Assembly: GCA_944386385.1 (NCBI GenBank)
Contig: CALXAV010000003.1
Location: forward strand, 19,376 to 83,375
Direction of reading: 5' to 3'
Origin: an uncultured Clostridia bacterium
Lineage (GTDB): Bacteria; Bacillota; Clostridia; TANB77; CAG-508
DNA: 64,000 bases
The translations under genes and the position numbers were made by a program. The notes under the pieces are model-generated. The model made no database searches, was not told where the DNA came from, and saw nothing but the letters and a program-made list of their open reading frames with translations. This document shows positions 5,780 to 36,459 of this stretch, one piece after another (position 1 is the stretch's first letter; each line of letters begins with the position of its first letter).

Positions 5780-6871
5780 ATGTTAAGAAAAGATAATATT
5801 CCAGTAAAAGATTGGTTTAATATTTGGTTCAATAGAGAAAAAAGAAAAGAGTTTTATACAACTTCTATTTCTTTGTATAAAACTACTTTTAATCATGATA
5901 AAGGTAATAGATTCTCAAATATACTTTTTAACGATTCTAAAAACGATAAAGAGATTTATTTTTCTTCAGCCACTTTATTAGAGCCTTTTGAAGAAAGTTA
6001 TGGAACTTTTTTAATAAAATTTCTTAATGCAAATTTTGCATCTTTTGAAACATCTTATCGTACTTTCTTCTGTTTTTATGGATTTTCTATTTTAAGTGAA
6101 TTTTATGCTTCAATTCCTTCATTAAAGTTTTTTAAAACAGAAGATGAATTTATAGAAACTTATCAACCAATTTTTAATAAAGTTAAATCTAAGTTAAAGA
6201 AATTACAATATTTGATAAAACAATGCGTAGACTATATGTATAATTTAAATAATAATTCAATAGATAAGAATTATACACCTTTAGAAAAGTATCTTTCTTA
6301 TTCTATTTTTAATAACTTATTTAAATATTCTACAAACATAGAAGTATATTATTATCAACAATTTGCACATGATATATACCATATATCTTCACAATCTATA
6401 ACACCTAAAATTGTTAGAGAACATTTAGAAAATAGAATAATAGATATAGGTGATAGTCCAGTTTTTCATACATCATATTTATCAAATGTACTGTATATTT
6501 CTTTATTTGAAATAGCTTCTAATACAAATATAAGAATTAAAGTTTGTAAGAACTGTAGTAAATATTTTATCCCATTAAAAAATACTGAAAAATATTGTGA
6601 TATTGTATATTTCGAAAATGAATTATCTTGTAAAAATGTTGGTGCTAATAACTCTTATTACAAAAAGAGAAATACTATTGAAGGAATTAAATTTTATAGA
6701 AATAATTATCAAAGAAGATTAATGCAAGTCAAAAGATCCAATGATGAACAAGTTAAAATAGCATTTGATAATTGGAAAAAACTTGCCAAAGAAAAAATTA
6801 AAGAATTTAATAATAATAAAATTTCAGAGAAAGAATTACTTGAATGGATGAAAGAAAATAAAAATATATAA
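5780..6871 (+). CDS. Hypothetical protein with a C-terminal Cys4 zinc-ribbon-like motif (363 aa)
   Basis: Contains CKNCSKYF...YCD...SCKNVG (CxxC-x13-C-x11-C). RBS GAGGTG lies upstream. It is convergent with the HEPN operon. Confidence 0.5.
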   Translation: MLRKDNIPVKDWFNIWFNREKRKEFYTTSISLYKTTFNHDKGNRFSNILFNDSKNDKEIYFSSATLLEPFEESYGTFLIKFLNANFASFETSYRTFFCFYGFSILSEFYASIPSLKFFKTEDEFIETYQPIFNKVKSKLKKLQYLIKQCVDYMYNLNNNSIDKNYTPLEKYLSYSIFNNLFKYSTNIEVYYYQQFAHDIYHISSQSITPKIVREHLENRIIDIGDSPVFHTSYLSNVLYISLFEIASNTNIRIKVCKNCSKYFIPLKNTEKYCDIVYFENELSCKNVGANNSYYKKRNTIEGIKFYRNNYQRRLMQVKRSNDEQVKIAFDNWKKLAKEKIKEFNNNKISEKELLEWMKENKNI

Positions 6872-8866: not shown

Positions 8867-9967
8867 TTATTTAAAGTAAATTGAACTTTTATCATCATTT
8901 TTAAATTTTATCATATCATTTTTTGACTTCAATAATGCCATAACTAAATTCTTAGCAATTTCATCTAACATGATTGCTGCATTTCCAATAACCCAATGGT
9001 TTTCAGTAAATTCAAAATAATCTAATTCATAGTCTTTCATAAAAATTCTCTTATACTTTTGTATTTCTTTTTCATAATTCTTAAAATCTCCATGAACTAG
9101 CTTTGATCTAATATCATATATACTGCATGCAAATTTTTCCATATTATTTTTTATAATATCATAATCTCCATTATAAAAATACTTTAGCTTTTTCTTTAAT
9201 TGATTTCTTATAGAATCTTTTGGATTAACTAATATCATTTCTATTATGTAAAATGGCGATAAGAAATGTTGGTAATGACTTGTTTGTTCTATTAAATGAT
9301 CCATAATAAAATCTAGTTTATAAAAATCAGATTTTTCTTCTATATAACTATCTATAGCACTTTTAAAATTAAATATTTCTTCTTTATTGTTTTTTACATC
9401 TTCATCATTATTTTGGGACTTATATATGGAAAAATTCCCATTCTTTTGAATTTTTAACTCCAGTCCTGATAAAATATGTAAAAAGCTATTTGTCCCAAAT
9501 AAAGAATCTCTTTCATCATCATGTAATATTCCTGTAAAGTTTTTTTCACTCATACTTGGTAACCAATTTTGTAGCATTGATATTTTGTGTTCTAATGAAT
9601 ATTCATCTATTTGCTCAGAATGTAATCTTTTTTCATCAAACTCATCATAAATAGTTCCTTCTATATCAAATTGTACTAACATTACAATTTTATTTAAAAT
9701 CTCATTAATACAATCTTTTTCATCACTCTTACTACTTATATTAAACATTCCATTCCAATATGAATCCATTAATATTTTCTTTATATCATACTCTTTCTTT
9801 TCCCATTTTCTAGAATGTTTTTTCTCTTGAGAAAGATTTTTATATAACATTTTTTTAATTCTTCCATAATATCCATCTCTTTTTAAAGGATTAACTAAAT
9901 ATAAACCTAATTTTTCACTTAGACAAATCGGTTCATTAATTTCACAAAACATATTATAAATAACCAT
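8867..9967 (-). CDS. HEPN-motif protein (366 aa from ATG 9967), first gene of the island operon
   Basis: The C-terminal region IYDIRSKLVHGDF contains R-x4-H. The codons AGA TCA AAG CTA GTT CAT at 9109->9092 were verified. I preferred ATG 9967 with GAAGGA upstream over the TTG at 9985. Confidence 0.55.
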   Translation of the reverse strand: MVIYNMFCEINEPICLSEKLGLYLVNPLKRDGYYGRIKKMLYKNLSQEKKHSRKWEKKEYDIKKILMDSYWNGMFNISSKSDEKDCINEILNKIVMLVQFDIEGTIYDEFDEKRLHSEQIDEYSLEHKISMLQNWLPSMSEKNFTGILHDDERDSLFGTNSFLHILSGLELKIQKNGNFSIYKSQNNDEDVKNNKEEIFNFKSAIDSYIEEKSDFYKLDFIMDHLIEQTSHYQHFLSPFYIIEMILVNPKDSIRNQLKKKLKYFYNGDYDIIKNNMEKFACSIYDIRSKLVHGDFKNYEKEIQKYKRIFMKDYELDYFEFTENHWVIGNAAIMLDEIAKNLVMALLKSKNDMIKFKNDDKSSIYFK

Positions 9968-29477: not shown

Positions 29478-31814
29478 TTACTGAGCTCCACCACTTATTG
29501 TTTGTTTTAGCGTTACTTTTATTATCGTTCCTTCTTGTACTTGTTCATTAGCCATATAATCTTGTGTAATTACATTTCCTTTTCCTTCTATACTAATATT
29601 TAAATTCTTTTCTCTTAAAGCTGCCGTTGCCTGTGATGCATTCATACCTTTTAAGTCAGGTACCGCTACTGAAGTTGAAACCTCACTACCTTCTCCATAA
29701 AGAACTATGATAGAATTCTTAGATAAACTTGCTCCTGGTTTTGGAGTTTGGTCTGAAACTAAAGTAGTATTTGCATCTCCATTAACATGTGTTATTACTT
29801 TAAATCCTGCACCTTCTAATGTTTTTTGTGCCTCTGCTACAGTTTTGTTTCTAACATCTGGTACAGTTATTAAGTTACTTGTATCTTCTGTTTCTACATC
29901 TGTTGATGGTATTCCCAAACATGGTAATATCTCTGTAAGCATTTGTGATACAACTGGTGCAACTAAAGTTCCTCCCTGATGATTACTTTTTGGTGGATCA
30001 TATAAAGTCACTAATATTACTACTTTTGTATCTTCTATAGGAGAAATAGCAACAAATGATGCAACATATCCAGCATCAGTATTTGTATATATTGGTTCTG
30101 ATGTTCCTGATTTTCCACCTACTGAATAACCAGCAACTGCGGCATTTTTTCCTGTTCCTTCTGTTACTACTGATTCCATCATTGATTTTACTTGGTCTGC
30201 TGTTTGTTTTGAGATAACTTGTCTTACTTCTGTAACTGGTGTTTCTGTAACTGCTCCTGTTTCTGTATTTGTTATCTGTTTTACAATTCTTGGTTGTAAT
30301 AATACTCCGTCATTTGCAATAGCACATACTGCTGTTGCCATTTGAAGTGGAGTAATATTCAATCTTTGTCCAAATGACATTGTTGCAAGTTCAACTGGTC
30401 CTACATTTTCTAATTTTTGGAATATACTACTTTGTTCTCCATATAATCCTGAATTTGTTGAATCAAATAATCCAAATGCATCATAATATTTATATAATGT
30501 TGATGCTCCTATTCTTTTTCCTAATTGCATAAATGATGGGTTACAAGATTTTTCTAAAGCTTGTCTTAAACTTAATTCACCATGAGCACTAGTCCAACAT
30601 GATATTCTAACAGGTTTATCTGATGAAGCATCTTCAAATTCTTCATATCCCTTACATACAAAGTCTCCTGATTTATCTGTTGTTGTTATATTTTCCTCTA
30701 ATGCAACTGATGCTGTAATAAGTTTAAATACTGAACCTGGTTCATATGTTTCTGACACTGACCTGTTTGCCCACATTTTATATAAAGCTTCACTTTTTTC
30801 TTCAGATGATAAAGAATCGTAAGTTTCTGCCAATACTGAGTTTGGAGTATATGGCTCATTTAAATTGTAATCTGGATAACATGCCATAGCTAAAATATCT
30901 CCATTTTGTGGATTCATAACTATTGCATTTCCACCTTTTTCACAATCATTCTCTTCTACTGCTTGTTTTAAATATTTTTCTACAATTGTCTGTATTCTAT
31001 AATCTATAGTAAGTGTTATATCACTACCATTTTCTGCTGATATATATGTTTCTTCTGAATCTGGAATCTCTTGTTGATCACTACCTTTTGAACTTACTAT
31101 TTTTCCAGGTGTTCCAGTTAAAATTGAATCCCATTGATACTCAATACCACTTAATCCTTGATTATCTCTTCCACAAAATCCTATAACATTAGATGCCACA
31201 TTATCATATGGATAGTATCTTTTTGTATCTTCATCAATATTTATTCCAACTGATACTTTATTATCTTCCATCCATTTTTCCAATTCATCAACTTTATCTT
31301 GTTCAACTTTTTTAGCAATAGTTTCTACTTGTGAGCTACTATTTACTTTTTCTAAAGTCTCATTATAATCTAATTCAAAAATATCAGATAGACCTTTTGC
31401 AACTTTTTCTTTTAAAGCTGTTGTTTCTTCTTCGTCATCTCCAACTATTTTTGCTGGATTAATTGTAATAGTATCAACTTGTGCACTTATTGCTAGTGCT
31501 TTTCCTGTTGAGTCATATATATTTCCTCGTTTTGGACTTATTATTTGATTTATTGCTTGTTGATTATATGCTGCCTCTTTTAATGTACTTCCTTCTACAA
31601 ATTGTAAAAAACCGATTCTACCTATTAGAAATACAAAGATTAGTACTATAACAATTAAAGCTACTCTCAATTTTTTAATTTGAATCATGTTTTTAGACTC
31701 AAATGGTGTTTTCATTTTTATTACATTATCATTTGAGTTATTATTCTTTTTTATATTTTTTGTTTTATTTCTCAGGTTATTTTTATTTTTATCTTTATTA
31801 TTTTTCATAGACAT
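29478..31814 (-). CDS. Class B penicillin-binding protein with two PASTA domains (SpoVD/PBP2x-like)
   Basis: TM anchor, SxxK GSVFKLITAS, SxN KSCNP, KSG GGKSGTSE. Two PASTA domains: VPDVRNKTVAEAQKTL and VPDLKGMNASQATAAL. Confidence 0.92.
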   Translation of the reverse strand: MSMKNNKDKNKNNLRNKTKNIKKNNNSNDNVIKMKTPFESKNMIQIKKLRVALIVIVLIFVFLIGRIGFLQFVEGSTLKEAAYNQQAINQIISPKRGNIYDSTGKALAISAQVDTITINPAKIVGDDEEETTALKEKVAKGLSDIFELDYNETLEKVNSSSQVETIAKKVEQDKVDELEKWMEDNKVSVGINIDEDTKRYYPYDNVASNVIGFCGRDNQGLSGIEYQWDSILTGTPGKIVSSKGSDQQEIPDSEETYISAENGSDITLTIDYRIQTIVEKYLKQAVEENDCEKGGNAIVMNPQNGDILAMACYPDYNLNEPYTPNSVLAETYDSLSSEEKSEALYKMWANRSVSETYEPGSVFKLITASVALEENITTTDKSGDFVCKGYEEFEDASSDKPVRISCWTSAHGELSLRQALEKSCNPSFMQLGKRIGASTLYKYYDAFGLFDSTNSGLYGEQSSIFQKLENVGPVELATMSFGQRLNITPLQMATAVCAIANDGVLLQPRIVKQITNTETGAVTETPVTEVRQVISKQTADQVKSMMESVVTEGTGKNAAVAGYSVGGKSGTSEPIYTNTDAGYVASFVAISPIEDTKVVILVTLYDPPKSNHQGGTLVAPVVSQMLTEILPCLGIPSTDVETEDTSNLITVPDVRNKTVAEAQKTLEGAGFKVITHVNGDANTTLVSDQTPKPGASLSKNSIIVLYGEGSEVSTSVAVPDLKGMNASQATAALREKNLNISIEGKGNVITQDYMANEQVQEGTIIKVTLKQTISGGAQ

Positions 31815-31842
31815 GCCTCTTTTGTTAAAATTTCATACAATT

Positions 31843-31871
31843 ATTTTACGTAAAAATCTATAAAAAGTCAA
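31843..31871 (-). promoter_or_regulatory. Putative promoter of the 778-aa PBP gene
   Basis: On the minus strand, TTGACT(31871-31866)-17 nt-TAAAAT(31848-31843). Confidence 0.45.
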
Positions 31872-31974
31872 GGAAATTCACACAATAGTCACTTATATTT
31901 CTCTTTAAAATTTAGCTATTATTAATTTTACTCTCCTACTTTATTAACCACCCATCTCTTAAGCCTCTGTCAAA

Positions 31975-32003
31975 TTGACATAATATGTAACAAATGGTAT
32001 AAT
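31975..32003 (+). promoter_or_regulatory. Perfect-consensus sigma-70/sigma-A promoter of the foreign cassette
   Basis: TTGACA(31975-31980)-17 nt-TATAAT(31998-32003), with TG at 31995-31996 (extended -10). Confidence 0.7.
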
Positions 32004-32040
32004 ATACATGTATTATTCATTCAGTTTTAGGAGGTTTCAC

Positions 32041-33027
32041 ATGACAACCACTATCAGCTACCAGGCATCTTCCAAGAGCACCTATTCCCTTCGGAATAAG
32101 TTCCTGAAGCAGCTTGTAAAAGCTGGTCTTGCCACAGATGCTCTTGACGATGCGATAACAATCGCAAACAATATGGACGAGACTACCATGCTCAACACGC
32201 TTTGGGCGATGAGTTTTTCATTTTCCATGGAGCAAGCTCTTAATCAGCTTCATGTCACTACAAATGAAGCTCTCGAGGGCGACGGCATGGTCTTGGTTCC
32301 GAGTGAGTTTGTCTACAGCTTACGTAATGAACTGCGTCACCAGTATACGCTGGTACACCAAGGATTCCTCAGTACTCCTGATGACGAACATGCTGAATGT
32401 TTTGAGCAGTTCGTACAAAGCATGGGAATGGACAAGATTCTCAGTACCGTTATCTACACGAAAGTTTCTCGCTTTTTAGCGAAATATCTCAGTCCATCCA
32501 GCACTAGCATTATCTCCAAGACTATCTACTTGCTCAAGTCTGATCTTGGAAACTTCCGTTACGGCGGTTTGAAGAACATCGGTTTCATTTCTCTAGAAGC
32601 TAAAGAGCTTCTAGACAGAACAGGAGCTATCGCCAACTTGTTAGAGAACCTCTATGAAGCATCCTTCCCCAAAGGCATCTCTTCTAAGAGTGTCCTCAAC
32701 GAAAAGTGGAATCGTCCATTTGAAGACTTGGACAAGATGCTCGAAGAGAGCGGTTTTACGTTTTCTACTGGGAAAACAATCGAAATCCCAGTTCAACCAG
32801 AAGAAGGCGATGACTCAGCTGAGAACGTGAGCATCGAACCTGTAGAGCATGCCTCTTTGGCTGTTTCTAGGGTCACATCTATAGATGTCCTCCAAAACCC
32901 GGATTTGTTCAAGCAATTTATCCGTGGTTACGATGATATCTCTCAAGCTGGCTTTGATGTCAATGAGGTTGTCGAGAAGCTTGATGCTATTCGAAATCTC
33001 TTGCACAGCTATGATGCCCTTAGCTAG
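32041..33027 (+). CDS. ORFan protein (328 aa) in a compositionally foreign cassette; contains an RNELRH (R-x4-H) motif
   Basis: AGGAGG at 32029-32034 lies 6 nt before ATG 32041 (the track ORF starts at 32008). GC by hand count is 28/60 and 26/60 in two samples, against 12-13/60 in the flanks. Codons such as CTC, AGC, GGC and ACC look rare in the neighbouring genes. No family recognised. Confidence 0.75.
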   Translation: MTTTISYQASSKSTYSLRNKFLKQLVKAGLATDALDDAITIANNMDETTMLNTLWAMSFSFSMEQALNQLHVTTNEALEGDGMVLVPSEFVYSLRNELRHQYTLVHQGFLSTPDDEHAECFEQFVQSMGMDKILSTVIYTKVSRFLAKYLSPSSTSIISKTIYLLKSDLGNFRYGGLKNIGFISLEAKELLDRTGAIANLLENLYEASFPKGISSKSVLNEKWNRPFEDLDKMLEESGFTFSTGKTIEIPVQPEEGDDSAENVSIEPVEHASLAVSRVTSIDVLQNPDLFKQFIRGYDDISQAGFDVNEVVEKLDAIRNLLHSYDALS

Positions 33028-33047
33028 TGGTTAAACTGTAAACCATG

Positions 33048-33108
33048 GAGACGAAACTTTCGTCTCACGTACACCAAGACAGAAACGAGGGACTCCTCGT
33101 TTCTGTCT
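33048..33108 (+). terminator. Two consecutive strong hairpins closing the foreign cassette
   Basis: GAGACGAA-act-TTCGTCTC (33048-33066) and a perfect 14-bp stem AGACAGAAACGAGG-gact-CCTCGTTTCTGTCT (33077-33108). The U-tract is weak (TACTTTAATATT). Confidence 0.6.
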
Positions 33109-33188
33109 TACTTTAATATTATATAAACCCTTGCTGATTTTCCTATTTTGTATTAAAATATAACAAATTAAGATTTATGAGGTGTAAA

Positions 33189-34049
33189 ATGGACAATATT
33201 TTAGAAGAAACCAAATTTATTATGAAGAAATATCATATAAGAGCAAATAAATCATTAGGACAAAATTTTTTAATTGATGATAAAGTAGTAGAAGGAATAA
33301 TTAATGGAAGTGATGTAAACAAAGATGATTTAGTAATAGAAATCGGTCCTGGTTTAGGTACCCTTACTAAATACCTATTAGAAAAAGCAAAAAAAGTCAT
33401 CTGTGTTGAATTAGATAATAAAATGATTAACATATTGGAAGATAGATTTAAGTTATATGACAGTTTTGAACTTTTACATAACGATATTTTAAAAGTTGAT
33501 TTAAATTCTATTATAAAGAAAGAAAAAGAACAATCTGATATAAAACAAGTAAAAATAGTTGCAAATCTTCCATATTACATAACAACACCTATCATAATGA
33601 AATTATTAGAAGATAAATTAGATTTAGATTCTATAACAGTTATGATTCAAAAAGAAGTAGCTGACAGATTAATTGCAACACCTGGAGACAAAGATACTGG
33701 TGCTATTACATATTCTGTTTATTATTATGCAACTTCTAAATCCCTTTTAGAAGTCCCAAAAGATTCTTTTATTCCAGAACCAGAAGTTACTTCTGAGGTT
33801 ATAAAATTAGAAATAAGAAAAGAACCTCCTGTAGAAGTAAAAAATAAAGAAGTTATGTTTAGAATTATAAAGTCCGCATTTATGCAAAGAAGAAAAACTT
33901 TATTAAATGCTCTTACAAATACTAAAGTTTTCTTAAATAAAGAGGAAGGGGTAAAAATATTAAACAAACTAAATCTTCCAGAAGATGTTAGAGCTGAAAA
34001 ATTAACCCTTCAAGCTTTTGCAGATATAACAAATGAATTTATCAATTAA
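33189..34049 (+). CDS. rsmA: 16S rRNA (adenine1518/1519-N6)-dimethyltransferase
   Basis: KSLGQNFLID, IEIGPGLGTLT, and ANLPYYITTPI. I preferred ATG 33189 after GAGGTG. Confidence 0.92.
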   Translation: MDNILEETKFIMKKYHIRANKSLGQNFLIDDKVVEGIINGSDVNKDDLVIEIGPGLGTLTKYLLEKAKKVICVELDNKMINILEDRFKLYDSFELLHNDILKVDLNSIIKKEKEQSDIKQVKIVANLPYYITTPIIMKLLEDKLDLDSITVMIQKEVADRLIATPGDKDTGAITYSVYYYATSKSLLEVPKDSFIPEPEVTSEVIKLEIRKEPPVEVKNKEVMFRIIKSAFMQRRKTLLNALTNTKVFLNKEEGVKILNKLNLPEDVRAEKLTLQAFADITNEFIN

Positions 34050-35777: not shown

Positions 35778-36230
35778 ATGGCAAAGATACTAGTTTTTAA
35801 TAATGATACAGATAGAATGGAAACATATTACAGAGGCGAATCAGAACCTATGCCATATAATACAAATGGAACTTTAAGAGTAAGAGAATTTAGAGGTTCT
35901 AGTAAAAGTAACATATTATGGACAACAAAAAGATGTATGCAAAGTTGGAATAGTCAAAGATATATTTTCGGAGGTCCAATTCCTGTTGGTTTTGCCTTTA
36001 AAAGACCATATGAAGGAGGACATGGAAATCAAAGTCAACATTACGCTGGAGTTGCTTTTGACGTTGGTCAAACATTATCTTCTACAAGAAGAACTCAACT
36101 TTGGAACTCAGCAAATAATTCTGGTGTATGGTCATTTGTTGAGCCACTTTCTTTAACACCTACTTGGGTACATTTTGATAAGCGTTTCCGGCAAACCGGC
36201 TTGTTCTTCTGGTGGATATCCTACACTTAG
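35778..36230 (+). CDS. Peptidase M15-family (D-Ala-D-Ala carboxypeptidase-like) catalytic part; 5' piece of a frameshifted gene
   Basis: SQHYAGVAFDV (H..G.A.D) and TWVHFDKR (vH.D.R) zinc-ligand signatures. The frame breaks at about 36185. Confidence 0.7.
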   Translation: MAKILVFNNDTDRMETYYRGESEPMPYNTNGTLRVREFRGSSKSNILWTTKRCMQSWNSQRYIFGGPIPVGFAFKRPYEGGHGNQSQHYAGVAFDVGQTLSSTRRTQLWNSANNSGVWSFVEPLSLTPTWVHFDKRFRQTGLFFWWISYT

Positions 36231-36459
36231 AAGAGGAAGTTTAAGTAATTATGTTTTAATTGCACAAGATGATTTAAATACTCTTGGTTATAGAACTAAT
36301 GGATTAGATGGTATTTTTGGTTCAGCTACCCAAAACGCAGTAATAAGTTTCCAACGTTCAAGAGGACTATCTGCTGATGGAATTGTTGGCTGTAATACTT
36401 GGAGAGCACTACAAGAAGCTGTTGTAGGTACTGGTGCAACAAGCACTACAATTAATTAA
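36175..36459 (+). CDS. Peptidoglycan-binding (PG_binding_1) domain; 3' piece of the same frameshifted gene
   Basis: LRRGSLSNYVLIAQDDLNTLGY...DGIFGSATQNAVISFQRSRGLSADGIVGCNTWRAL matches the PG_binding_1 pattern. Confidence 0.7.
   Translation: MISVSGKPACSSGGYPTLRRGSLSNYVLIAQDDLNTLGYRTNGLDGIFGSATQNAVISFQRSRGLSADGIVGCNTWRALQEAVVGTGATSTTIN

What the first reader, a model, noticed from the sequence alone, without database searches (positions are those of the whole stretch)
31934..33115. Compositionally foreign, self-contained single-gene cassette (consensus promoter + AGGAGG + 328-aa ORFan + double hairpin) between a PBP gene and rsmA
About 1.2 kb here differs sharply from the rest of the window. 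Hand counts give 28/60 and 26/60 G+C inside the ORF, against 12/60 and 13/60 in the flanks. The codon choice (CTC, AGC, GGC, ACC, CTG) looks atypical of the neighbouring genes. The segment carries a textbook promoter: TTGACA-17-TATAAT with an extended TG (31975-32003). AGGAGG lies 6 nt before ATG 32041. Two strong hairpins follow the stop, one with a perfect 14-bp stem (33048-33108). Imperfect 10-bp direct repeats, TCCTACTTTA (31934-31943) and TCTTACTTTA (33106-33115), coincide with the compositional boundaries. The protein matches nothing I recognise. It contains SLRNELRHQY (R95-H100, 32323-32340), an RNxxxH string of the HEPN type, at a position compatible with an N-terminal ~130-aa HEPN domain. 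This could be a recent horizontal insertion (a moron-like or defence/toxin gene) or an engineered or assembly-derived insert.
Basis: seen in the sequence. Interest (0 to 1): 0.78.

Follow-up and report, generated by a model that had tools for sequence, protein, structure and literature searches.

The report
GC-rich hypervariable orphan gene cassette
A real, self-contained 1.2-kb gene unit sits between two housekeeping genes of a very AT-rich gut Clostridium; it belongs to an undescribed, fast-diverging protein family that stays GC-rich in every AT-rich genome examined, so it is neither an assembly artefact nor a fresh foreign import, and it is not a HEPN toxin.

Summary
Window 31902-33129 is a monocistronic unit: a 12/12 sigma-A promoter with extended -10, AGGAGG, a 328-aa ORF and two hairpins. 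It has 43.5% GC against 27.4% for the rest of the window. GC3 is 0.49 against 0.138±0.026 in the 53 other ORFs.

It recurs in independent metagenome assemblies as different alleles, so it is not an artefact. 42 of 69 related species have an empty PBP|rsmA site. One has a different GC-rich ORFan there.

The protein belongs to an unnamed family of about 200 clusters at 50% identity. All 11 members examined, down to about 24% identity, are stand-alone cassettes. Each has 37-45% GC in hosts of 24-31% GC and the same promoter build. They lie at four or more chromosomal sites.

Near-identical hosts carry alleles only 25-38% identical at the same site, and close alleles are mosaics. GC-richness is therefore a persistent family trait, and host translational selection does not explain it.

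A confident AlphaFold model (pLDDT 87) matches nothing in the PDB. The HEPN motif is not conserved. The C-terminal three-helix module weakly resembles CW_7 cell-wall-binding repeats.

Function is unknown. The most likely role is a strongly expressed determinant under diversifying selection.

The parts
31902..33129 (+). Cassette-specific DNA. It is absent from the empty PBP|rsmA sites of sister species, where a short AT-rich spacer stands in its place (whole PBP-rsmA gap: median 192 bp).
   Evidence: Alignment with the empty sites L006/L007/L008/L010 and with L009: shared flank sequence ends near 31901 (...CACACAATAGTCAC TTATATTTC) and resumes at 33130 (CTTGCTGA...). Boundaries are good to about ±30 nt because the AT-rich spacer is poorly conserved.
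31975..32003 (+). Sigma-A-type promoter: TTGACA (31975-31980), 17-nt spacer, extended -10 TGgTATAAT (31995-32003). The TTGACATAAT box is conserved in 9 of the 10 family upstream regions read (TTTACATAAT in L091).
   Evidence: 12/12, TG present; family comparison.
32004..32040 (+). Region between the -10 box and the start codon, holding the short 5' leader, with AGGAGG at 32029-32034, 6 nt before the start codon.
   Evidence: GGAGG(T/G)TTT is conserved across family members. The promoter and leader stay about 80% identical between L094 and L103 although their coding sequences no longer align.
32041..33027 (+). ORF of 328 aa plus stop. It is a member of an unnamed protein family of about 200 clusters at 50% identity.
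   Evidence: dN/dS between alleles is 0.25-0.54, so it is a real coding sequence.
32068..32670 (+). N-terminal all-alpha domain (residues ~10-210). Invariant or near-invariant residues are R18, K20, F21, L54, W55, R95, E97, L98, R99, Q101, G175, G176. No PDB fold match.
   Evidence: AlphaFold2 on the 60-sequence alignment gives pLDDT 92-98 over most of this domain. Foldseek best E = 1.5, TM at most 0.26. Conservation.
32320..32346 (+). Family signature motif LRNELR(H/Y/F)QY (L94-Y102). E97 is invariant in both alignments (60 and 27 sequences); R99 is invariant in the N-domain alignment and at least 90% conserved in the 60-sequence one. H100 is not conserved.
32671..32868 (+). Acidic linker of variable length and low confidence (residues 211-276; pI 4.35).
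32869..33024 (+). C-terminal three-helix module (residues 277-328) with the motif AGF-D-x-x-E-V-x-x-K. It weakly resembles the CW_7 repeat of the Cpl-7 lysin.
   Evidence: Pfam CW_7 is not matched.
33048..33066 (+). 3'-UTR hairpin 1 (8-bp stem, no U tract). Its position is conserved in 8 family members, which show compensatory base changes and a following CA(U/C)ACA motif.
33076..33119 (+). Intrinsic terminator: perfect 15-bp stem (33076-33109) plus a T-rich tail.
29478..31814 (-). Left flank: class B penicillin-binding protein (PBP_dimer/Transpeptidase/PASTA), transcribed divergently. A host core gene.
33189..34049 (+). Right flank: rsmA/ksgA (RrnaAD), with its own promoter retained downstream of the cassette. 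A host core gene.

Best explanation
SHOWN. The segment is a genuine monocistronic expression cassette: near-consensus sigma-A promoter, short leader with a strong Shine-Dalgarno, a 328-aa ORF, a conserved 3' hairpin and an intrinsic terminator. It lies in the divergent intergenic spacer between a PBP gene and rsmA of an uncultured, about 27% GC gut Clostridium.

It is one allele of an undescribed gene family of about 200 clusters at 50% identity. All 11 distinct members read lie in AT-rich contigs of uncultured gut bacteria (hosts named Clostridia wherever a name was available). Every one has the same build and the same composition offset, GC3 0.32-0.52 against about 0.14 for the host. The GC-richness is therefore a persistent property of the family, not a sign that this copy arrived recently.

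The locus is hypervariable. Hosts whose flanking genes are 85-95% identical carry alleles only 25-38% identical at the same site. Close alleles are mosaics of exchanged segments. The promoter/leader and the 3' hairpins stay more conserved than the coding sequence.

INFERRED. Whole cassettes and sub-gene segments are swapped by homologous recombination through the conserved flanks and cassette ends. New sites such as PBP|rsmA are occupied occasionally in permissive intergenic spacers. The same spacer holds an unrelated GC-rich ORFan in a sister species.

The protein has no signal peptide and is acidic (pI 4.7). It has a new all-alpha N-domain with invariant R18, W55 and E97 and invariant or near-invariant R99 and G175, an acidic disordered linker, and a small three-helix C-module distantly like CW_7.

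WORKING MODEL (inferred, low confidence). It is a constitutively and strongly expressed recognition or conflict determinant under diversifying selection. It is either phage-directed or cell-wall-directed, with the C-module as a targeting unit. The GC3 offset is held up either by a gene-specific force (GC-biased conversion at a recombination hot gene, or selection on the mRNA) or by constant re-seeding from a GC-richer pool not yet seen. It is not a HEPN RNase.
For: Real and not an artefact. The same junctions appear in L001 (1 mismatch in 9 kb), L002 and L093, with allelic differences.

Insertion. 42 of 69 related species have an empty site. L009 carries a different GC-rich 154-aa cassette in the same spacer.

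Family. 14 close homologues, then 200 clusters with E at most 1e-3 and 140 with E at most 1e-10, all 180-430 aa. None of the clusters whose source annotation was checked carries a name.

Persistent composition and build. L003, L086, L089, L091, L094, L098, L101, L102, L103 and L100 have 37-45% GC in 24-31% GC flanks. Nine of the ten carry TTGACATAAT (TTTACATAAT in L091); all ten have a TATAAT -10, most with an upstream TG, a GGAGG, and downstream hairpins.

Not host translational selection. Host ackA, pta, hpf, L31, trx and thrS keep A3 at 0.50-0.67 and C3 at 0.07 or less, while the ORFans have A3 at 0.17-0.27.

Hypervariability at a fixed site. Between L003 and L102, ThrS is 85% and YchF 92.6% identical but the ORFan 24.8%. 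Between L094 and L103, ABC2 is 94.6% and GcpE 95.2% identical but the ORFan 38%.

Mosaicism. Between the window and L002, the flanks differ at 0-1 positions per 250 nt (3 in one bin), but 65 differences are packed into 31750-32500 (codons 1-110 dS 0.285, codons 111-210 dS 0.016). Between the window and L093 the pattern is reversed. The alleles give four N/mid combinations.

Cassette ends outlast the coding sequence. The 3' hairpin shows covariation.

Protein. AlphaFold2 pLDDT is 87.4. There is no PDB or BFVD fold match and no Pfam, PHROG, NCBIfam or PADLOC hit.

C-module and CW_7. The top two PDB hits are 5i8l and 4cvd (single-repeat E 0.03-0.08), and hhalign gives 92%.

Recombining genes having higher GC3, mainly through non-optimal GC-ending codons, is an established pattern (PMC4450053). 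HGT hotspots between core genes that are kept up by recombination are also established (PMC5635113).
Against: - Function rests on indirect signatures only. No partner gene, enzymatic motif or defence-family match was found.
- Overall dN/dS is below 1 (0.25-0.54), so positive selection is not demonstrated.
- Known effects of biased gene conversion in bacteria are a few GC3 points, not about 35.
- GC1/GC2/GC3 (0.49/0.35/0.49) look like an ordinary gene of a 43-45% GC Firmicute. A hidden donor pool therefore remains possible.
- Only 11 of about 200 family clusters were seen in genomic context, so some members may live in GC-richer genomes.
- The recombination mechanism is inferred from patterns, not observed.
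- The CW_7 similarity is borderline. The Pfam CW_7 model is not hit. In the hhalign alignment the positions expected to match the muropeptide-contacting Arg223 and Gln238 of Cpl-7 (PMC5705596) do not appear conserved; the residue mapping is my own and approximate.
- A protein with no signal peptide has no obvious route to the wall.
Confidence: 0.5

Rival explanations
1. Recent horizontal import from a donor of about 45% GC. The cassette, promoter and terminator included, came from another Firmicute or a mobile element shortly before sampling and has not yet drifted toward the host's AT-rich composition.
For: Sister species have empty sites. GC1/GC2/GC3 of 0.49/0.35/0.49 and T- and C-ending codon choices (CGT, GCT, TCT, ATC, CTT/CTC, GTC) resemble a normal gene of a 40-45% GC Firmicute. 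Other unrelated GC-rich ORFan cassettes occur in related genomes.
Against: All 11 family members examined, down to 24% identity with saturated dS, sit in 24-31% GC hosts and keep the same offset. There is no homologue in 50,697 phage records, 72,556 plasmids or IMG/VR patterns, and none in any named genome among 5.8 billion proteins. The insertion predates the window/L093 split (about 5% nt divergence in the flanks) and has diversified in place.
Confidence: 0.2
2. Functional sub-hypothesis: a lysin- or autolysin-like modular cell-wall protein. The new N-domain would be a catalytic or binding module (invariant E97), joined by a flexible linker to a CW_7-like cell-wall-binding C-module, by analogy with the phage endolysin Cpl-7.
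For: The three-part build matches endolysins. The C-module's best PDB matches are the two Cpl-7 CW_7 structures, and hhalign gives 92%. One member (P0084) has the C-motif in tandem. Modules recombine independently. Peptidoglycan genes are neighbours at three of four sites: PBP, M23 peptidase/SpoIID, M14 peptidase. Two small 2-TM, holin-like ORFs flank the gene in L094-L097.
Against: The N-domain matches no known peptidoglycan-hydrolase fold although the model is confident. The Pfam CW_7 model is not hit at E up to 10. The Arg/Gln ligand contacts of CW_7 do not appear conserved in my approximate reading of the alignment (PMC5705596). The promoter looks constitutive and strong, with no signal peptide and no holin at most loci, this one included. 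There is no prophage context.
Confidence: 0.2
3. HEPN-domain RNase toxin or defence effector, as the reader proposed on the basis of R95-N-x-x-x-H100.
For: The string RNELRH exists in this allele. R95 and R99 are conserved, and R99-x6-H106 is invariant among the 14 closest relatives. The family is hypervariable, as many defence genes are.
Against: H100 is H/Y/F even among close relatives, and H106 is lost in the 60-sequence alignment. No conserved His therefore remains. Foldseek with a pLDDT-87 model finds no HEPN or any other fold (E at least 1.5). There is no PADLOC, Pfam or NCBIfam hit.
Confidence: 0.03
4. Assembly chimera, contamination or engineered insert.
For: The GC boundaries are sharp and the expression signals look textbook.
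Against: The same junctions appear in other ENA assemblies (ERZ28616110, ERZ16268120, ERZ16268116) with natural allelic variation, and in a Logan assembly at the protein level. Diverged family members with the same architecture occur in many samples.
Confidence: 0.01

Closest known systems
Prophage 'morons' (autonomous promoter-gene-terminator units with atypical composition, as first described in lambdoid phages; recalled from memory)
   Same: A single gene with its own promoter and terminator, inserted between two genes that are adjacent in relatives, with a base composition unlike its surroundings.
   Different: It is not in a prophage. The flanks are core genes (PBP, rsmA) and there is no phage homologue. 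The family has about 200 deeply diverged clusters that all keep the same composition offset.
Chromosomal HGT hotspots between core genes, kept up by homologous recombination (Oliveira et al. 2017, PMC5635113)
   Same: There is accessory cargo between conserved core genes and no mobility gene. Different cargo occupies the same spacer in a sister species (L009). Alleles are replaced in a conserved frame.
   Different: The cargo is a single gene, and the same family recurs as highly divergent alleles at fixed sites. It behaves more like a hypervariable locus than a turnover hotspot. The GC3 excess is not a described hotspot property.
Cpl-7 endolysin and its CW_7 cell-wall-binding repeats (PDB 4CVD, 5I8L; PMC5705596, PMC3466307)
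   Same: The build is domain-linker-small three-helix module. The C-terminal motif ...L..AG(F/Y)D(P)..V..K...I aligns with CW_7. The protein is acidic and lacks a signal peptide.
   Different: There is one unit rather than three repeats. The Pfam CW_7 model is not matched. Arg223 and Gln238 do not appear conserved in my approximate reading of the alignment. The N-domain is not a GH25 muramidase or any known fold.
HEPN superfamily (Rx4-6H RNases)
   Same: It is all-alpha with a conserved Arg-rich motif.
   Different: There is no conserved His and no fold match.
GC-biased gene conversion in recombining bacterial genes (Lassalle et al. 2015, PMC4450053)
   Same: A recombination-prone gene has raised GC3, made up largely of GC-ending codons that are non-optimal for the host.
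   Different: The size of the effect, about +35 GC3 points confined to one gene, is to my knowledge (from memory; the effect size was not retrieved from the paper) far beyond the genome-wide effects described.

Membership tests
HEPN domain | Conserved Rx4-6H catalytic motif | tested here: not met
   H100 is H/Y/F in the 14-sequence alignment. H106 is invariant there but lost in the 60- and 27-sequence alignments, where no His is conserved.
HEPN domain | HEPN four-helix up-down fold | tested here: not met
   Foldseek against the PDB with a pLDDT-87.4 model gives a best hit of E = 1.5 and TM at most 0.26. No HEPN protein is listed.
Prophage moron | Autonomous promoter + ORF + terminator with atypical composition | tested here: met
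Prophage moron | Located inside a (pro)phage genome | tested here: not met
   The neighbours over about ±5 kb are PBP, mraZ/rsmH, rsmA, sortase, a methyltransferase and ispH. There is no PHROG hit, no phage blastn or tblastn hit and no IMG/VR hit.
Transposon / insertion-sequence-borne gene | Terminal inverted repeats, target-site duplication, transposase | tested here: not met
   The 10-bp direct repeat is at chance level. The only long-range repeats are 74-80% AT-rich matches. No transposase or integrase is annotated within about ±5 kb.
Integron gene cassette | Promoterless ORF followed by attC, in an array next to intI | tested here: not met
   The cassette has its own 12/12 promoter. It stands alone between core genes, with no integrase among the neighbours. 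The 3' hairpin was not tested as an attC.
CW_7 cell-wall-binding repeat (Pfam PF08230) | Significant match to the CW_7 sequence family | tested here: inconclusive
   The C-terminal profile's top two PDB hits are Cpl-7 CW_7 (4cvd E 0.034; 5i8l per-repeat E 0.076) and hhalign gives 92%. Pfam scans of 10 C-terminal segments at E up to 10, and of 60 full members, do not return CW_7.
CW_7 cell-wall-binding repeat (Pfam PF08230) | Three-helix bundle with muropeptide-contacting Arg and Gln (Arg223 and Gln238 in Cpl-7) | tested here: inconclusive
   The AlphaFold2 model has three helices at 280-327. In the hhalign alignment the aligned positions do not look like a conserved Arg or Gln in the family (residues from PMC5705596). 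The mapping of Arg223/Gln238 onto the alignment is my own and approximate, so this half leans to 'not met' without being firm.
Phage endolysin / autolysin | Recognisable peptidoglycan-hydrolase catalytic domain | tested here: not met
   No Pfam or NCBIfam domain is found, and no PDB fold match to lysozyme, amidase, CHAP or transglycosylase folds.
Known anti-phage defence systems (PADLOC-DB 2.0) | Match to a defence-protein model | tested here: not met
   Zero families at E up to 10.
Chromosomal HGT hotspot (between core genes) | Variable accessory content between conserved core flanks across related genomes | tested here: met
   At PBP|rsmA, the spacer is empty in 42 of 69 species, holds the ORFan in the window lineage, and holds a different 154-aa ORFan in L009.

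The most novel reading that the evidence does not exclude
AT-rich uncultured gut Clostridia keep a class of insulated, strongly promoted single-gene cassettes. This family and at least four or five unrelated ORFan families belong to it. Their synonymous sites are held near GC3 0.4-0.5 in genomes whose GC3 is about 0.14, through deep divergence. That would require one of two things. One is a gene-specific GC-driving process, either hyper-recombination with biased conversion or selection on mRNA composition or rare-codon dependence. The other is an unseen GC-richer replicon that keeps seeding these cassettes. The family itself would be a new-fold, hypervariable conflict or recognition protein.
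Probability: 0.3. Interest if true: 0.75.

Novelty: new variant of a known kind. Interest (0 to 1): 0.6.

Why it matters
An atypical base composition is the standard cue for 'recently acquired foreign DNA'. In the members examined, the cue persists across a gene family diverged to about 24% identity, always inside AT-rich hosts. It is confined to synonymous sites and is not explained by host codon adaptation. If that holds for the whole family, composition-based HGT dating fails for this class of genes. It also points either to an unusually strong local GC-driving force in bacteria or to an unseen gene reservoir in a poorly known group of gut Clostridia.

The family is a clean target for structure and function work. 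The predicted fold is confident and has no PDB match. The signature motifs are invariant (FRxKF, LW, LRNELRYQY, GG). The C-terminal module is CW_7-like. The alleles behave like arms-race loci.

For annotation, the result removes a tempting but wrong HEPN/toxin label.

Tried and rejected
- Pfam, PHROGs, NCBIfam and PADLOC on the protein, and Pfam on 60 family members: nothing consistent.
- megablast and tblastn against INPHARED phages and PLSDB plasmids: no match.
- IMG/VR pattern scan: no relative.
- Metagenome scan: only two more loci of the P0005 type.
- Second homologous-protein run with the 60-sequence profile: it added little because of the candidate cap.
- Foldseek of the first, weaker model against PDB and BFVD, and of the good model against PDB: no hit with E at or below 0.001.
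- Profile against PDB sequences, full length and N-domain: only rotavirus NSP2 residues 160-215 (WKLTY...ELRWQY; E 0.013-0.06). I judge this a chance match of two short motifs to a protein I recall (from memory) as having an alpha/beta fold there.
- Rfam on the cassette and on the whole window: nothing. No tRNAs.
- Target-site duplication and terminal repeats: chance level.
- Host translational selection as the cause of high GC3: rejected, because presumably highly expressed host genes do not shift.
- A holin partner: small 2-TM ORFs flank the gene only in the L094-97 locus type, not here.
- A second family copy in the window or in the 80 rsmA loci: none.
- Literature searches for a described equivalent: none found.
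Full report
1. THE OBSERVATION

The window has 27.7% GC overall. The stretch 31934-33115 has 43.5% and the ORF inside it 44.9%. This is the highest value of any 1.18-kb window in the 64 kb (mean 27.7%, sd 3.4%).

The excess is synonymous. GC3 is 0.493, against 0.138±0.026 (maximum 0.207) in the 53 other ORFs of at least 150 aa. GC1 (0.49) and GC2 (0.35) are within the host range. Host third positions are A 0.51, T 0.36, C 0.05, G 0.08. In the ORF they are A 0.18, T 0.33, C 0.30, G 0.20.

- TTGACA (31975-31980), 17 nt, TGgTATAAT (31995-32003). This is the only 12/12 promoter match in 31-34 kb.
- AGGAGG at 32029-32034, 6 nt before ATG 32041.
- ORF 32041-33027, 328 aa.
- An 8-bp hairpin at 33048-33066 and a perfect 15-bp terminator stem at 33076-33109. 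Folding z-score is -7.1.
- Flanks are a PBP gene (PBP_dimer/Transpeptidase/PASTA) and rsmA (RrnaAD).

Two details fail. The 10-bp imperfect direct repeats are at chance level: 20% of shuffles and 40% of random window positions do as well. No significant terminal repeats exist.

2. NOT AN ARTEFACT, AND AN INSERTION RELATIVE TO SISTER SPECIES

The identical protein sits in the same PBP|ORF|rsmA context on an ENA contig that matches the window at 9,024 of 9,025 nt (L001). A 94% allele (L002) and an 85% allele (L093) occupy the same context in other assemblies.

A scan of one genome per species with RsmA returned 80 loci. All are from uncultured AT-rich Clostridia (CAG:343/440/354/575-like MAGs; RsmA 62-87% identical). 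None encodes a relative of the ORF near rsmA, by tblastn or by profile HMM.

Among the 69 species with the divergent PBP/rsmA arrangement, 42 have a gap of at most 450 bp (median 192 bp). Alignment with these empty sites places the cassette-specific DNA at about 31902-33129.

In L009 (RsmA 85%) the same spacer holds a different cassette. It is a 154-aa ORFan on the other strand, with about 42% GC and its own promoter and terminator. That protein belongs to another unnamed family of at least 75 clusters.

3. THE FAMILY

The first search found only 14 relatives among 5.8 billion proteins. All came from metagenomes and all were unnamed. An exhaustive profile search of 1.84 billion representatives found 200 clusters with E at most 1e-3 and 140 with E at most 1e-10, all 180-430 aa. 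None of the ten clusters looked up carries a name.

I read 11 distinct members in context. Every one is a stand-alone gene of 37-45% GC (GC3 0.32-0.52) in flanks of 24-31% GC. Nine of ten upstream regions carry TTGACATAAT (TTTACATAAT in L091); all ten have a TATAAT -10, most with an upstream TG, and GGAGG(T/G)TTT, followed by one or two downstream hairpins.

At least four sites are used:
- PBP|rsmA, in the window lineage.
- Next to thrS, in L003, L100, L086 and L102.
- After an ABC-2 permease, in L094 and L103.
- ruvB|M23-peptidase/spoIID, in L101.

L102 comes from the same MAG as L023, one of the relatives with no copy at rsmA. Relatives can therefore carry the family elsewhere in the genome.

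4. THE GC-RICHNESS DOES NOT INDICATE RECENT ARRIVAL

The window allele and the L003 allele are 42% identical with saturated dS. Both still have GC3 of about 0.5. Members at 24-29% identity (L098, L101, L102) keep GC3 at 0.41-0.46.

Presumably highly expressed host genes do not shift. AckA, pta, hpf, L31, trx and thrS keep A3 at 0.50-0.67 and C3 at 0.07 or less; spoVG reaches C3 0.15. The pattern is therefore not an extension of host translational selection.

The shift is uniform over two-fold and four-fold codons and is mainly an avoidance of A-ending codons.

No relative was found in INPHARED phages, PLSDB plasmids or IMG/VR.

Two explanations remain. One is a gene-specific force. Recombining bacterial genes do show raised GC3 through non-optimal GC-ending codons (PMC4450053), although, as far as I recall, by far less than seen here; I did not retrieve the effect size from the paper. 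The other is continual seeding from a pool not yet sampled. I could not separate them.

5. HYPERVARIABILITY AND MOSAICISM

At the thrS site, L003 and L102 share ThrS at 85% and YchF at 92.6% identity, but their ORFans are 24.8% identical. At the ABC-2 site, L094 and L103 share ABC2 at 94.6% and GcpE at 95.2%, but their ORFans are 38% identical.

Between L094 and L103 the coding sequence is no longer alignable by blastn. The promoter/leader (88 nt, 79.5%) and the 3' hairpin region (96 nt, 74%) still align.

Between the window and L002 the flanks differ at 0-1 positions per 250 nt (3 in one bin). Yet 65 differences are packed into 31750-32500. Codons 1-110 have dS 0.285, and codons 111-210 have dS 0.016. 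Against L093 the pattern is reversed, with dS 0.04 and 0.39.

The four close alleles show all four combinations of two N-terminal and two middle types. Alleles therefore recombine within the gene. Overall dN/dS is 0.25-0.54, so the ORF is constrained as a protein.

6. THE PROTEIN

With 14 sequences AlphaFold2 gave pLDDT 67.8. With 60 sequences it gave 87.4, with most 10-residue blocks in the N-domain at 92-98. The model has three parts:
- An all-alpha domain, residues about 10-210.
- An acidic, length-variable linker, residues 211-276.
- A three-helix module, residues 280-327.

Foldseek finds nothing in the PDB (best E 1.5, TM at most 0.26). With the earlier, weaker model it found nothing in BFVD either.

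Residues conserved across the family are R18, K20, F21 (N-terminal FRxKF), L54, W55, R95, E97, L98, R99, Q101 (LRNELRYQY), G175, G176 and G304. H100 and H106 are not conserved, so no Rx4-6H motif survives. HEPN is rejected on both motif and fold.

The protein has pI 4.7, no hydrophobic segment (maximum KD19 0.77) and no signal-like N-terminus.

A profile of the C-module alone picks the two Cpl-7 CW_7 structures as its top PDB hits: 4cvd at E 0.034, and 5i8l at 0.076 per repeat. The summed 6e-12 for 5i8l is inflated by three near-identical repeats. hhalign gives 92%. However, Pfam does not return CW_7. The Arg and Gln that contact muropeptide in Cpl-7 (PMC5705596) also do not appear conserved in the alignment; the residue mapping is mine and approximate. 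I treat CW_7 as a lead, not as membership.

The N-domain profile's only PDB hit is rotavirus NSP2 residues 160-215, at E 0.013. It rests on two short motifs and is probably chance.

7. WHAT IT IS AND HOW IT LIKELY WORKS

Shown:
- It is an insulated, monocistronic cassette with near-optimal expression signals.
- It is inserted in a permissive divergent spacer.
- It is one allele of a hypervariable family found so far only in AT-rich gut bacteria (Clostridia where named).
- Its compositional offset is a persistent family trait.

Inferred:
- Alleles and sub-gene segments are exchanged by homologous recombination through the conserved flanks and cassette ends. This fits the recombination-maintained hotspots described in PMC5635113.
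- The gene is strongly and constitutively expressed.
- The product is a recognition or conflict determinant under diversifying selection.

Whether it is directed at phages or at the cell wall is open. The points in favour of a cell-wall role are the CW_7-like module, peptidoglycan-gene neighbours at three of four sites, and holin-like 2-TM ORFs in one locus type. I give the cell-wall reading about 0.2.

8. NOVELTY

The general kind is known: an autonomous accessory gene at a hotspot, moron-like in build. Four things have no described equivalent that I could find:
- The unannotated family and its unmatched predicted fold.
- The extreme allelic divergence in a fixed genomic frame.
- The conserved 3'-UTR hairpin.
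- The persistence of a roughly 35-point GC3 excess in AT-rich genomes.

Limits. Only 11 of about 200 clusters were seen in context. There was no AFDB search, no reads and no expression data.

Noticed in passing
L009:5340-5804 (-), same PBP|rsmA spacer as window 31902-33129: A sister species (RsmA 85%) carries a different GC-rich (42%) 154-aa ORFan cassette in the same spacer, in the opposite orientation, with its own promoter (TTTACATAAAATATGGTATAAT) and terminator. Its family has at least 75 unnamed clusters and no Pfam or PHROG hit.
   Followed up: partly
L037:8215-8850 (+); L083:4160-4729 (-); L084:4164-4727 (-); L101:14862-15458 (-); L074:8230-8529 (+): Further unrelated single-gene ORFan cassettes with 39-48% GC (GC3 0.36-0.64) lie in hosts of about 27-30% GC. 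Each has a strong promoter-like site and a terminator hairpin, and none has a significant Pfam or PHROG assignment. GC-rich insulated ORFans look like a recurrent feature of this clade.
   Followed up: partly
window 33027-33119, and the 3' UTRs of L093, L003, L086, L091, L089, L094, L103: The 3'-UTR architecture is conserved: AAACC, then a roughly 10-bp hairpin with compensatory changes (AU<->GC, UA<->AU), then CA(U/C)ACAA, then the terminator. It could be an mRNA-stability or protein-binding element. There is no Rfam match.
   Followed up: partly
window 35778-36459 (+): A gene that I read by eye as an M15-like peptidase (HYAGVAFD motif; Pfam gave only a weak DUF4379 hit for this ORF) plus a PG_binding_1 domain is split into two overlapping frames (150 aa and 94 aa; overlap 36175-36230). 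It is mildly GC-enriched (36-38%). The same split is called in L001 and L002, so it is either a real frameshift or pseudogene or a programmed shift. In L037 a GC-rich ORFan cassette sits directly after the homologous gene.
   Followed up: no
L094:12069-13259 vs L103:15967-17157: AckA is only 64% identical between two genomes whose neighbouring ABC2, GcpE and other genes are 82-95% identical. A second locally replaced gene may lie in the same region.
   Followed up: no
L094:4239-4466 (+) and 5879-6091 (+) (also L095-L097): Two small 2-TM proteins (75 and about 63-70 aa), holin-like in size and topology, flank the family member P0017 inside a 1.8-kb GC-enriched zone. Sua5 follows here but not in L103. 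Other family loci, the window included, have no such ORFs.
   Followed up: partly
window 32041-32670 (protein residues ~43-102): The N-domain profile hits rotavirus NSP2 residues 160-215 (MWKLTY...ELRWQY against the family's LWKLTY...ELRYQY) at E 0.013 against PDB sequences. It is probably coincidental, but both family signature motifs match at similar spacing.
   Followed up: partly
window 1-64000: There are no tRNA genes and no Rfam family at gathering threshold anywhere in the 64-kb window. Gene orientation switches at the PBP|rsmA spacer, where the cumulative GC skew has a local minimum near 32-33 kb.
   Followed up: no
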